Shown here: positions 40,901-43,900 of the stretch, in pieces
How the letters are laid out: the number at the start of each line of letters is the position of its first letter
Numbering within the stretch: the stretch's first letter is position 1
Origin: the human T2T-CHM13v2.0 reference genome, Homo sapiens
Length of the DNA stretch: 64,000 nucleotides
Direction: 5' to 3' (one strand)
NCBI RefSeq assembly: GCF_009914755.1
Contig: NC_060929.1
Notes under the pieces: generated by a model
Told to the model about the DNA's origin: nothing
Seen by the model: the letters and a program-made list of their open reading frames with translations, nothing else
Database searches by the model: none
Translations under genes and position numbers: made by a program

Positions 40901-43900
40901 GTGTGTGCTGTGTGTGTGGGGGGTGGTCTTACCCTGGGTGAGGACTCAGACTGCCCTCAGCAGCTTTGAATTGCCTTCCAGAACATTCTTGAAGGCCTTC
41001 CCGCTGATGGGGGAGACACAAGAGCGTGAGCGGGTCCTCACACACTTCTCCCGCCGGTACTGCCAGTGCAACCCTGATGACAGCACTTCGGAAGGTATGG
41101 CCCCTTGCCCACTCTGCCTGACCCTCCCCACCCACTCAGCCAGGCCCTGGTCCCCTCCCATCCTGGTCCACCTGGCACTTCGGTCCTGTTGCCAGGCCCA
41201 GATGGTTTGTCCTCTCTGGCATGCAGTAGGTGCTCAATGAATGCTAATTGAATAAGCTATGGCACACGGTCTGCCTGCTGAGCAAGGCGCAGTCTTGCCT
41301 GTTCTCCTCCCCACTGCCTGGAAGTCCCTCCAGCCTCGGGATTCAGCTCTGGGGCTCTCCCTTCTCTGGGGTCCCTGTCATGGTGCTGGCTGTTGGTGTG
41401 GTGGGGGTCTAGGTCGGGGTCCTCTTAGGGACAGGACTTGCCCAATAGATGGGCCTAAGTCCCAGGAACTAGGGGACAAGGCCCATTATTGGGAGAGACA
41501 CAGGTCAATGCAGGGGCAGGGCTGGGAGCTCAGAGCTATTTCTGGGTCTGAGGTTCAAGGTGAGTTTGGCCACAGGAGGCAGGAGTCTGGGCCAGAGTGG
41601 GTCCAGGGTGGTCAGGCTCCTGGGGCAGGCAAGTGACTTGGGTCCTGCAGTTGGGGCAGACCTGGAGCGTCACACAGGCCCTGTCCCCTGAGGTGAGTTT
41701 GGCAGGCGGCCGGCCTCCCTCTGTGTCCAAGGTCTCCTGACGGGTTCCGTCAGGAGACAGGGAGTGGGAAGAGGTTGGATCCTCGCACTGAGAGTGCCAC
41801 CATCTCTGACTCAGATGGGATCCACACGCTCACCTGTGCCCTGATGCTGCTCAACACGGACCTGCACGGCCACGTGAGTTGGGGAGGTGACGGGGGGTGT
41901 CGCATGTCCTCTCAGGGACCCACCTTGTGTTGATCCCGGCCCCTTCCTGAGATCTCTTACTCAGTGGCCGGGCTTCTTTTTGAAGCGGTGGGGGTTGGGC
42001 AGCTTGGCTTCTAGATTTGGCCCCGCCCTAGTTTCATCCACCTGTGATCCACCTGAGTCCCCACCCCCAAGTATGCCAGTGAGAGCAGCTGGGCCACGGG
42101 AGTTTAAGATGAGCCACAAATGTGTGCCTCTCGTCCATGCTAAGAGATCATGTGCCCTTTGTGCCCCTGTCCTGCAAGTCTGAATGCAGCTGCATTGAAA
42201 TACCGTGCTCGGGGCAGCCCCTCCCAAATCCCCGGCCCCTACCAGGCCAAGCAGTGAAGTGACTGGTGTGGGACGCCCAGGCTGTGAGGCTGTGTCTGGT
42301 CCAGGCCCCAGGCTGTCTCAGCACTTCTCATGGCTCAATAACTCCTTCTTCTTTCCTCTATCTGCTCCGGGACCCCTCTCTGGGCTCTCTTGCCCTCGCA
42401 GGTGGTAAGTGTAGCTAGTGGTGTGCATGCCCTGTGTGCCGAGGCCCCCATCACCATGTTGCCCTTCTGTGTCCCCCATCACCATCTGGCTCCACCCCAT
42501 CTCTGCCCCATCATTGCTCACCCATGGTGGTTGGAGCCCCCTGCTAGGTAGGGAATATCTCAGTGACTCATGGGGACAACAGGCCAGCAAGTTAACCAGG
42601 AAATCCAGGGCATATGGGGGTGAAAGAAAGAGCTGGGATAGACCAAACTTCAGATTCTACTCTTGCCTCCACGTGGTAGCTGTGTGATCCCGGGCAAGCA
42701 CTGGCCCTCTCTGGGCCTCAGGTTCCACATCTGTGAGGTGGGAATAATGATCTCCCTGCGGTGTCATGGGCAGGACTGAGAGAGGTAATATACATGGCAC
42801 CAAGGGGCAGGGTCTGGCACCTAGTAAGGATTTCATTATGAAGAAAATTGTTACGTAAAAAGAACAATAGTATTCCTCATTACTGTGAAAATCGAACCAA
42901 GGGCAAGCTGGAAGACCCAGCCTGCAGGCCCCTGTAGGGCAAGATTGTGAAGGCCCAGTCTGCTGGCAGCCTGGGCTCATGGGTGCACTGGGGCACCTGG
43001 CCTGGGGAGGGCTAGAGCCTCAGTGCCTGCGTCAGGAAGAGCAAATATGCGACAGCTTTTGCCAAGTCCACCTGGGCATGCAACCTGAGTGTGGAACAAG
43101 AGAGAAGACGCATTCCATATGAATGTCACTCACCACCAAAGCCCATGAGCCTGCTGCTGTTCCCCTAGACTGTGCCCTCTGTTTATTGACAGACAGCAGT
43201 GTTGCTGGCCTGCTTTGAAAGGAGCACTCAACAGGCCCCTCACTCCCTGTCCCCACCCCTGGCTGGGCCTCCCTATGGCTAAGAACTGCTAAGGAGGGCG
43301 GCAGCCACTGTGTAGTGAACCCTGGGCCAAGAGCACCCCGCAGCTTGGTGGGCCTTAGCTGGCATGGTCTCACATTGATGCCACAGCTGAAGAGAAATGT
43401 CAGCACTTCATAGATTAGAAGTGGGTTGGGATGAGTGTTCATGTTTGCAGCAGACAGACACTGAGGCTTTCGTCTCTCTCTTGTTTTTTTTTTTTTTTTT
43501 TTTGAGACGGAGTCTCACTCTGTCGCCTAGGCTGGAGTGCAGTGGCGAGATCTCGGTTCACCACAAGCCTCGCCTCCCAGGTTCATGCCATTCTCCTGCC
43601 TCAGCCTCCCGAGTAGCTGGGACTACAGGCACCTGCCACCACGCCCGGCTAATTTTTTGTATTTTTAGTAGAGATGTCTCTCTCTTTACGTGGTACTGCT
43701 CAGAGATTAGGAGCGCAGGCTCTGAGGCTGTGTTCTCTGTTGCTCCACACGAAGGCTGTGTGGCCTGAGACAAGTTATTTACTTCACTATGCCTCAGTTT
43801 CCCCATGATAAAGTGCCAGTGTGTAAAGAATGTGAAGTAAAGCTCGTACCCAAGGCCTGGCGGTTGCAGTTACTGGGAGCTCTTCAGAGCACCTGATGCT

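What the first reader, a model, noticed from the sequence alone, without database searches (positions are those of the whole stretch)
42322..42530. Hidden 3-nt neural microexon (GTG/Val) inside the PSD2 Sec7 domain
Seen: intron 7 is phase 0 and contains ...ctctcttgccctcgcag|GTG|gtaagt (GTG = 42402-42404). Upstream is a 78-nt AG-free, pyrimidine-rich zone (42322-42399) with a UGC 11 nt before the exon. Downstream are a consensus GTAAGT donor, UGCAUG at 42424-42429 and a dense YCAY cluster (~42447-42527). Established: a UGC close to the 3' splice site plus a long AG-exclusion zone is the SRRM4/SRRM3 microexon signature, and downstream RBFOX and NOVA sites promote inclusion. A 3-nt microexon in cytohesin ARF-GEFs switches lipid specificity. 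Inference: inclusion gives DLHGH-V-NIGKK (Val after His423), just after Sec7 motif 2, possibly tuning ARF6 exchange in neurons. From memory (unverified), a PSD3 isoform has HGHVNIG at the same position, which would point to an ancient family-wide switch. Intron 7 itself begins with GTG, so aligners would mis-map inclusion reads as a 3-nt extension of exon 7, which could hide the event.
Basis: partly seen in the sequence, partly recalled or inferred. Interest (0 to 1): 0.85.

Follow-up and report, generated by a model that had tools for sequence, protein, structure and literature searches.

The report
Known 3-nt valine microexon in PSD2
The three bases GTG in intron 7 of human PSD2 are a real, very old mini-exon that adds one valine to the enzyme's catalytic domain, but splicing databases and predicted protein isoforms already record it, so it is not a new discovery.

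Summary
Window 42400-42410 reads ag|GTG|gtaagt, in phase after His423. It follows a 78-nt AG-free pyrimidine tract with a UGC 11 nt upstream, and TGCATG and a YCAY cluster lie downstream. It is the only exact AG-GTG-GT in intron 7. The other AG-GTN-GT site lies in a dispersed repeat.

The microexon is real and ancient:
- The same 11-mer AGGTGGTAAGT sits in the matching PSD3 intron.
- HGHVNIGKK isoforms occur in mammal, bird and teleost PSD2 and in PSD3, including Swiss-Prot mouse PSD3.
- MicroExonator lists a mouse Psd2 GTG microexon 760 nt into the same intron.
- A zebrafish table taken from VastDB lists a 3-nt neural psd2 microexon whose human orthologue is HsaEX0050530.

It is therefore already catalogued, not hidden. 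Human regulation is unmeasured: the human row is marked NO_COV. SRRM3/4 dependence is partial in zebrafish (dPSI -19.84). The mouse tables do not label the Psd2 or Psd3 events as neural. No functional study turned up. The valine lies in the loop after the NTDLH helix of the Sec7 domain.

Novelty: already known. Interest: low to moderate.

The parts
41815..41873 (+). PSD2 exon 7, the upstream flanking exon. It ends with CAC (His423) in phase 0, and its donor is gtgagt, so the intron itself begins with GTG.
   Evidence: the cumulative CDS to 41873 is 1269 nt, or 423 codons.
42322..42399 (+). 78-nt AG-free, 76% pyrimidine zone upstream of the microexon. It holds CU-rich runs (ctctctgggctctctt), TGC at 42391-42393 (11 nt before the exon) and a second TGC at 42363-42365. 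A yUnAy-like ctcat near 42327-42331 is a possible distal branch point (my reading, not tested).
   Evidence: An extended pyrimidine tract, a distal branch point and UGC motifs are described as features of neural microexons in passages of PMC12871342.
42400..42401 (+). AG of the microexon's 3' splice site.
42402..42404 (+). The 3-nt microexon GTG (Val), inserted between His423 and Asn424.
   Evidence: It is the only AG-GTG-GT in intron 7. The identical 11-mer is in the PSD3 intron. HGHVNIGKK isoforms exist in many vertebrates. MicroExonator places a mouse GTG microexon 760 nt into the orthologous intron.
42405..42410 (+). 5' splice site gtaagt. All six intronic positions match the consensus, and the base at -1 is G.
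   Evidence: The mouse orthologue's row holds the value 83.9, which I take to be the 1-100 U2 splice-site score (the score is defined; the column header was not read).
42424..42429 (+). TGCATG (RBFOX-type hexamer), 20 nt downstream of the microexon.
   Evidence: The background rate is 26 per 64 kb on the + strand. Its function was not tested.
42447..42526 (+). Cluster of 12 YCAY tetramers (NOVA-type), partly from a repeated cccccatcaccat.
   Evidence: top 0.26% of 80-nt windows. Its function was not tested.
52803..52892 (+). PSD2 exon 8, the downstream flanking exon. It starts AAC ATT GGC AAA AAG (NIGKK).

Best explanation
Window 42402-42404 (GTG) is a genuine cassette microexon of PSD2 (EFA6C). 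When it is spliced between exons 7 and 8 it adds one valine, giving ...[14 protein letters not shown]... The valine falls in the loop that follows the NTDLH helix of the Sec7 domain.

The microexon is old. It is present in PSD2 of teleosts, birds and mammals and in the paralogue PSD3, so it probably predates the PSD2/PSD3 duplication. It is absent from PSD and PSD4, whose introns at this position are very short.

Recognition of so small an exon is inferred to rest on three features: a perfect GTAAGT donor, a long AG-free pyrimidine tract with a UGC close to the 3' splice site, and help from tissue-specific factors. In zebrafish, inclusion is highest in neural tissue, intermediate in endocrine pancreas, and falls partly when srrm3/4 are lost.

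The event is already recorded in VastDB-derived tables, in MicroExonator and in predicted protein isoforms. Its effect on the protein has not been studied.
For: Sequence anatomy:
- The anatomy is as described.
- Chance is low: the 11-mer arose in 4 of 1000 shuffles of PSD2 intron 7 and in 12 of 1000 shuffles of the PSD3 intron.
- Intron 7 has only two AG-GTN-GT sites. The other, at 49303 (GTT, donor gtttgt), lies in a dispersed repeat: 5808 first-look candidates genome-wide, and 40 of 40 scored matched, the 39 copies elsewhere at 77-82% identity.

Paralogue:
- Human PSD3 has ...ttcttctag|GTG|gtaagt about 2.2 kb into the matching 32.8-kb intron, with a 70-nt AG-free zone.
- Mouse Psd3 has a 3-nt event 2.3 kb after its upstream exon.

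Proteins:
- PSD2: 32 of 106 clusters that cover the site read HGHVN, including Pan troglodytes, Nomascus, Hylobates, rodents, carnivores, bats, a shrew, a tenrec and four bird genera.
- Teleost PSD2: 16 of 120.
- PSD3: 5 of 102, including Swiss-Prot PSD3_MOUSE.
- In 4 of 5 isoform pairs tested, the two forms differ only by this Val.

Transcript-based catalogues:
- MicroExonator supplement row: chr18_+_35988998_35989001, intron chr18:35988238+36002923, length 3, GTG, values 309, 83.9 and 3.2, flagged RESCUED and Novel. 'Rescued' means the conservation score exceeds 2.
- eLife 2025 supplement: zebrafish psd2 DreEX0058791, 3 nt, MIC_Neural, dPSI neural 82.11, dPSI eMIC -19.84, human event HsaEX0050530.
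- Zebrafish PSI: neural 84.65, endocrine pancreas 45.13, muscle 18.37, immune 4.47, and 0 in seven other tissues.
- Tapial 2017 supplement: mouse Psd2 MmuEX0037489, 3 nt.

Position in the protein:
- phmmer aligns [14 protein letters not shown] to ARNO NTDLHN-PNVRDKM, so the +Val form is one residue longer.
- The AlphaFold2 model has a helix at 403-421, a loop at 422-431 and a helix at 432-438, with pLDDT below 50 at 424-426.
Against: - No human read-level evidence could be examined. The human event is marked NO_COV with NA values in the eLife table.
- I could not see the other two RefSeq transcripts of the locus.
- VastDB's mouse coordinates (mm9 chr18:36160277-36160279) put the 3-nt exon 12.4 kb into the intron. 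MicroExonator puts it 0.76 kb in, and the human site is 0.53 kb in. For a 3-nt exon the genomic placement is inferred, and the two catalogues disagree.
- Predicted isoforms can be propagated by homology, and both GTG (the start of the PSD2 intron) and GTA (the start of the PSD3 intron) also encode Val.
- The neural and SRRM4 part is weaker in mammals. Mouse Psd2 is labelled PanAS. Mouse Psd3 is labelled LFAS and ASE, a control group outside the eMIC-regulated and neural sets. The MicroExonator row carries the label 'Other'. No PSD2 row appears in the Sci Adv 2022 mammalian exon-set table.
- PSD3's acceptor has no UGC.
- Flanks of the PSD2 and PSD3 microexons share nothing beyond the 11-mer.
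Confidence: 0.88

Rival explanations
1. The microexon is real, but in mammals it is a broadly alternative, partly included exon. It is not an SRRM4-driven neuron-specific switch, and the motif pattern (UGC, TGCATG, YCAY) is not what decides its use.
For: - Tapial 2017 supplement: mouse Psd2 3-nt event labelled PanAS, with values 30, 83, 45.4, 0, 84.54 (header not read).
- Mouse Psd3 event labelled LFAS and ASE, a control group outside the eMIC-regulated and neural sets.
- The MicroExonator row is labelled 'Other'.
- In zebrafish the largest loss on srrm3/4 removal is only -19.84, from a PSI of about 85.
- The PSD3 acceptor lacks a UGC.
Against: - The zebrafish event is strongly neural: dPSI 82, and 0 in seven non-neural tissues.
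- PSD2 itself is mostly brain-expressed (passages), so classes based on many tissues are poorly informed.
- The PSD2 acceptor has the CU-rich tract plus UGC arrangement described for SRRM4 targets.
Confidence: 0.3
2. The extra Val comes from a 3-nt extension of exon 7 (the intron starts with GTG) through a non-canonical donor, or from modelling artefacts, and not from the internal GTG at 42402-42404.
For: - The PSD2 intron starts GTG and the PSD3 intron starts GTA, and both encode Val.
- Some database models clearly read into the intron here: HGHVSN in P0149, HGHVCN in P0466, HGHVCTGV... in P0296.
Against: - The extended donor would be AG|TTGG, which is not GT, GC or AT.
- Zebrafish, mouse Psd3 and MicroExonator's mouse Psd2 events are internal cassettes 0.76-3.9 kb from the upstream exon.
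- MicroExonator reports the inserted sequence as GTG.
- The identical AGGTGGTAAGT occurs in both paralogous introns.
Confidence: 0.03
3. In human the site is a chance or decayed pseudo-exon that is no longer used, although orthologues use theirs.
For: The human VastDB event has no usable coverage (NO_COV). No human transcript was inspected here.
Against: - All signals are intact and strong in the human sequence.
- Chimpanzee and gibbon +Val isoform models exist.
- The position matches the mouse site (528 versus 760 nt into the intron).
Confidence: 0.04

Closest known systems
PSD3 (EFA6D) 3-nt microexon (mouse MmuEX0037495; human site at L012:738-740, minus strand, C8:19061837-19061839)
   Same: It sits in the paralogous intron between the same codons (HGH|V|NIGKK). 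It has the identical AG-GTG-GTAAGT core and a long AG-free zone upstream (70 nt), and it lies 2.2-2.3 kb after the upstream exon in human and mouse. The +Val form is the Swiss-Prot mouse PSD3 sequence.
   Different: - The acceptor is AT-rich with no UGC, and there is no TGCATG just downstream.
- It is labelled LFAS and ASE in the mouse tables, which is not a neural or eMIC-dependent class.
- +Val is rarer among database isoforms: 5 of 102 against 32 of 106 for PSD2.
Cytohesin-1/2/3 3-nt (Gly) microexon
   Same: It is a conserved 3-nt microexon in an ARF6 guanine-nucleotide exchange factor that adds a single residue to a folded domain (passages of PMC6314551 and PMC6724607).
   Different: - It lies in the PH domain and changes PI(4,5)P2 versus PI(3,4,5)P3 preference. 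The PSD2 and PSD3 residue lies in the Sec7 domain loop after the NTDLH helix.
- The two events are not homologous.
- No functional difference has been reported for the PSD2 or PSD3 forms.
Vertebrate SRRM3/4 (eMIC)-regulated neural microexon programme as catalogued in VastDB
   Same: - It is 3 nt long and in frame, sits in a trafficking/GTPase-regulator gene and is deeply conserved.
- It has a CU-rich tract plus UGC before the acceptor.
- The zebrafish orthologue is classed MIC_Neural and drops in srrm3/4 mutants.
   Different: - The drop in mutants is modest (-19.84).
- Human regulation is unmeasured (NO_COV).
- The mouse labels are not neural.

Membership tests
Genuine cassette microexon (as opposed to a pseudo-exon) | In-frame length with canonical AG and GT flanks inside an annotated intron | tested here: met
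   ag|GTG|gtaagt in phase 0, with no stop codon.
Genuine cassette microexon (as opposed to a pseudo-exon) | Transcript evidence for inclusion | tested here: inconclusive
   Met for orthologues: a mouse MicroExonator row with GTG and the value 309, VastDB events in zebrafish and mouse, and +Val isoforms in many species. No human reads could be examined, and the human event is NO_COV.
Genuine cassette microexon (as opposed to a pseudo-exon) | Conservation of the exon across species and paralogues | tested here: met
   HGHVNIGKK occurs in mammals, birds and teleosts. The same 11-mer is in human PSD3. The mouse site carries the value 3.2 and the flag 'rescued'.
SRRM3/4 (eMIC)-dependent neural microexon | UGC-containing, CU-rich element between the branch point and the 3' splice site | tested here: met
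   ctctctgggctctcttgccctcgcag has TGC 11 nt before the exon, within a 78-nt AG-free zone. The motif is as described in passages of PMC12871342. It is not met at the PSD3 paralogue.
SRRM3/4 (eMIC)-dependent neural microexon | Neural-enriched inclusion | tested here: inconclusive
   Zebrafish: neural 84.65 against 0-18 in non-neural, non-endocrine tissues, dPSI 82.11. Mouse Psd2 is labelled PanAS in Tapial 2017 and 'Other' in MicroExonator (headers not read). Human values are NA.
SRRM3/4 (eMIC)-dependent neural microexon | Inclusion depends on SRRM3/4 | tested here: inconclusive
   Zebrafish lowest dPSI across three srrm3/4 mutant comparisons is -19.84. The human overexpression value is NA. There is no PSD2 row in the Sci Adv 2022 mammalian exon-set table.
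RBFOX- or NOVA-enhanced exon | Functional (U)GCAUG or YCAY cluster downstream of the exon, with binding or knock-down evidence | not testable with these tools
   The motifs are present (TGCATG at +20, 12 YCAY in 80 nt). No CLIP or perturbation data were available, and the motifs are not shared with PSD3.
Cytohesin-type 3-nt microexon | Extra Gly in the PH-domain phosphoinositide-binding loop | tested here: not met
   The residue is a Val in the Sec7 domain: it aligns to ARNO Sec7 residues and lies in the loop between helices 403-421 and 432-438. It is an analogue, not a member.

The most novel reading that the evidence does not exclude
The single valine is a functional switch rather than a neutral length variant. 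It lengthens the loop directly after the NTDLH helix. That loop lies between the two positions (Asp and Met in EFA6) that align with the ARNO residues altered in the brefeldin-sensitised mutant (the role of those residues is recalled, not tested). The insertion could change how fast or how selectively EFA6C and EFA6D exchange nucleotide on ARF6 versus ARF1 in neurons and endocrine cells. On this reading it is an early-vertebrate feature of the EFA6 family, kept in the two long-intron paralogues and lost from PSD and PSD4. No paper in the searched library discusses it.
Probability: 0.3. Interest if true: 0.55.

Novelty: already known. Interest (0 to 1): 0.3.

Why it matters
PSD2/EFA6C and PSD3/EFA6D activate ARF6 at synapses. 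A conserved one-residue change inside their catalytic domain is a plausible but unstudied point of regulation.

In practice, the +Val and -Val forms should be told apart in expression and functional work. One published PSD2 qPCR primer spans the exon 7/8 junction without the GTG.

The case also shows that a 3-nt exon can be placed at different genomic positions by different catalogues, as VastDB and MicroExonator do for mouse. Here the paralogue and the human sequence help settle the placement. As a discovery it adds little, because the event is already in public tables.

Tried and rejected
- Irimia 2014 is not held.
- supplements of PMC12871342 and PMC12868881 were closed, so lists there that may name PSD2 were not seen.
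- no 'Psd2' or 'Psd3' by name in the MicroExonator supplements. The row was later found by coordinate prefix.
- the PLoS Biol 2021 supplements hold PSD2 only in expression tables (files 13-18 not searched).
- no PSD2 or PSD3 in the PNAS 2022 supplements (files 13-17 not searched).
- no main text in the library discusses a PSD2 or PSD3 Val microexon, and HsaEX0050530 appears in 0 main texts.
- the second AG-GTN-GT site at 49303 was rejected because of its weak donor and its position in a dispersed repeat.
- PSD and PSD4 introns (110 and 208 nt) hold no AG-GTN-GT.
- no flank similarity between the PSD2 and PSD3 microexon regions beyond the 11-mer.
- an RNA fold of 42310-42440 is no more stable than shuffles (z = 0.34).
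- no decayed second copy of the 11-mer in intron 7. The near matches at 44777 and 45518 lack the AG or the GT.
- No vertebrate genome other than human was available, so nucleotide conservation was not measured.
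Full report
**1. Observation.**
The sequence is exactly as described.
- Exon 7 of PSD2 (41815-41873) ends with CAC. 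The coding length up to that point is 1269 nt, so the boundary is in phase 0 after His423.
- The intron begins gtgagt.
- 528 nt further on lies ...ctctctgggctctcttgccctcgcag|GTG|gtaagtgt, with GTG at 42402-42404.
- The 78 nt before the AG (42322-42399) hold no AG and are 76% pyrimidine.
- TGC is at 42391-42393, TGCATG is at 42424-42429, and 12 YCAY start between 42448 and 42522.
- Exon 8 (52803) starts AAC ATT GGC AAA AAG.

Chance is an unlikely explanation.
- The exact 11-mer AGGTGGTAAGT arose in 4 of 1000 dinucleotide-preserving shuffles of the 10,929-nt intron.
- Of the 5 AG-NNN-GTRAGT sites on the window's + strand, only this one has an AG-free zone of at least 40 nt and at least 60% pyrimidines.
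- Only 0.26% of 80-nt windows reach 12 YCAY. All the others lie in low-complexity arrays of intron 8.

**2. Is it the source of a real isoform?**
An in-phase single-residue insertion between His and Asn needs an AG-NNN-GT site, and Val needs GTN. Intron 7 has only two AG-GTN-GT sites.
- The site at 42400 is the one in the finding.
- The site at 49303 reads ag|GTT|gtttgt. It has a poor donor and lies in a dispersed repeat: the genome search gave 5808 first-look candidates, and 40 of 40 scored matched, the 39 copies elsewhere at 77-82% identity. I recognise this repeat as LINE-1-like from memory only.

No other copy or decayed copy of the 11-mer lies in the intron.

**3. Paralogues.**
The window's genome can be searched. 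Exon 7 and exon 8 equivalents were found for PSD3 (C8), PSD (C10) and PSD4 (C2).
- PSD has a 110-nt intron at this position and PSD4 a 208-nt intron. Neither has an AG-GTN-GT.
- PSD3 has a 32,769-nt intron. About 2.2 kb into it lies ...ttattcttctag|GTG|gtaagttt with a 70-nt AG-free zone. That is the same 11-mer. It arose in 12 of 1000 shuffles of that intron.
- Outside the 11-mer, the two regions do not align. The PSD3 acceptor has no UGC.

**4. Proteins.**
The large protein database holds vertebrate proteins.
- PSD2 (query exon 10; the best 120 of 533 hits were listed): 106 cover the site. 73 read HGHN, 32 read HGHVN and 1 reads HGRN. The +Val forms include chimpanzee X3/X4, Nomascus X1/X3, Hylobates, several rodents, carnivores, bats, a shrew, a tenrec and four bird genera.
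- PSD3 (120 of 448 listed): 102 cover the site. 96 read HGHN, 5 read HGHVN and 1 reads HGHVSN.
- Teleost PSD2 (120 of 2772 listed): 103 HGHN, 16 HGHVN, 1 HGHVCN.
- In 4 of 5 X1/X2 isoform pairs tested, the two proteins are identical except for this Val. The four are fathead minnow, grass carp, common carp and king penguin.
- Among 149 new 50%-identity representatives, 128 have the motif. HGHVNIGKK appears in two of them. The more distant representatives (no organism names are given) lack the Val and vary in loop length.

**5. Catalogues.**
The event is already recorded in four supplementary tables.

(a) eLife 2025 (PMC12626424; supplementary files 1 and data 1, and methods section 14 read).
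- Zebrafish psd2 DreEX0058791, chr14:7907187-7907189, length 3, class MIC_Neural.
- dPSI neural 82.11, dPSI eMIC -19.84, conservation class NO_COV, human event HsaEX0050530, human values NA.
- Tissue PSI: neural 84.65, endocrine pancreas 45.13, muscle 18.37, immune 4.47, and 0 in testis, adipose, epidermis, gills, intestine, kidney and liver.

(b) MicroExonator (PMC7821500; one supplement row seen, header not read; methods passages read).
- chr18_+_35988998_35989001, intron chr18:35988238+36002923, length 3, GTG, values 309, 83.9 and 3.2, flags RESCUED and Novel.
- By the methods, 'rescued' means a conservation score above 2, and the U2 splice score runs from 1 to 100.
- The site is 760 nt into a 14,685-nt intron. 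That matches the human geometry of 528 nt.

(c) Tapial 2017 (PMC5630039; rows seen, header not read).
- Mouse Psd2 MmuEX0037489, 3 nt, label PanAS.
- Mouse Psd3 MmuEX0037495, 3 nt, label LFAS.

(d) Sci Adv 2022 (PMC8797185; one row seen, methods section 42 read).
- Mouse Psd3 MmuEX0037495 is in the ASE control group. There is no PSD2 row.

In main texts I found no discussion of the event. The searches were PSD2+microexon, PSD3+microexon, '3-nt microexon', EFA6C+'splice variant', EFA6D+'alternative splicing'+Sec7, and HsaEX0050530. Passages of the EFA6C knock-out paper do not mention it either.

**6. An unresolved point.**
VastDB's mouse Psd2 coordinates (mm9) span the same intron length as MicroExonator's: 14,686 against 14,685 nt. 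VastDB puts the 3-nt exon 12.4 kb after the upstream exon, whereas MicroExonator puts it 0.76 kb after.
- Reads across a 3-nt exon show only the inserted triplet, so the genomic placement is inferred.
- The human sequence has a single AG-GTG-GT, 0.53 kb in. Together with the PSD3 paralogue, it favours MicroExonator's placement.
- I could not inspect the mouse genome to confirm this.

**7. Mechanism.**
Shown:
- The anatomy.
- Conservation of the coding outcome.
- Cassette use in mouse and zebrafish.
- Neural and endocrine enrichment and partial srrm3/4 dependence in zebrafish.

Inferred:
- Recognition in human relies on the perfect GTAAGT donor and on the extended CU-rich, UGC-bearing, AG-free acceptor region. 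This is the arrangement described for SRRM4-responsive neural microexons in passages of PMC12871342.
- The downstream TGCATG and YCAY cluster may add RBFOX or NOVA input. They are present, untested, and not shared with PSD3.
- The region between the putative branch point and the donor shows no special RNA structure (z = 0.34).

**8. Protein consequence.**
- phmmer against solved structures aligns [14 protein letters not shown] of the +Val form with NTDLHN-PNVRDKM of ARNO Sec7 (1r8m/1r8q/1s9d). The -Val form therefore has the ARNO loop length and the +Val form is one residue longer.
- An AlphaFold2 model of the gibbon +Val protein was built with 88 aligned sequences. Its mean pLDDT is 56.9 because residues 1-306 are disordered. 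It places His421 at the end of helix 403-421 and Val424 in the loop 422-431 before helix 432-438, with pLDDT below 50 only at 424-426 within that stretch.
- From memory, not tested: the Asp and Met that bracket this loop correspond to positions changed in the brefeldin-sensitised ARNO mutant and lie near the ARF-Sec7 interface.
- Any effect on exchange activity is speculation.

**9. Verdict.**
- Not supported: the claim that it is hidden, the claim that it is family-wide, and the claim that it is an established SRRM4 switch in mammals.
- Novelty: already known, in the sense of catalogued but functionally unstudied.
- Interest: 0.3.

Noticed in passing
window 42402-42404 (mouse orthologue in published tables): VastDB (mm9 chr18:36160277-36160279) and MicroExonator (mm10 chr18:35988998-35989001) place the same 3-nt mouse Psd2 insertion at different points of one 14.7-kb intron: 12.4 kb and 0.76 kb after the upstream exon. 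The human and PSD3 evidence favours the second placement.
   Followed up: partly
L012:738-740 (minus strand; C8:19061837-19061839): Human PSD3 carries the paralogous GTG microexon with the identical AGGTGGTAAGT core and a 70-nt AG-free zone. Its acceptor is AT-rich with no UGC, and a TGCATG lies about 110 nt upstream rather than downstream.
   Followed up: partly
window 41867-41873 joined to 52803-52815 (exon 7/8 junction): The published PSD2 qPCR reverse primer in PMC6314551 is the reverse complement of the exon 7/exon 8 junction without the GTG. It would favour the -Val isoform and under-count +Val transcripts.
   Followed up: no
window 53138-54517 (intron 8): There are several patches with 12-15 YCAY per 80 nt. 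They are made of degenerate CCAT/CACC-type tandem arrays (periods 12 and 20), which are the only other YCAY-dense places in the window.
   Followed up: partly
window 49100-49520 (intron 7): A poly-A run is followed by a dispersed repeat (thousands of genomic copies at about 80% identity; LINE-1-like from memory) and then an Alu-like stretch. Only 49425-50007 is in the hub's masked list. This repeat holds the only other AG-GTN-GT of the intron.
   Followed up: yes
proteins P0149, P0466, P0296, P0375, P0352: Some database gene models read into the intron at this junction (HGHVSN, HGHVCN, HGHVCTGV..., HGEVGTG..., HGHDCPLV...). They look like modelling artefacts around the tiny exon.
   Followed up: no
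protein P0355 (784 aa; representative without a name): A distant EFA6-like protein reads HGKKNIGKK, which is also one residue longer than HGHNIGKK at this loop. Several more distant representatives have longer loops here, so the loop length is variable across the family.
   Followed up: no
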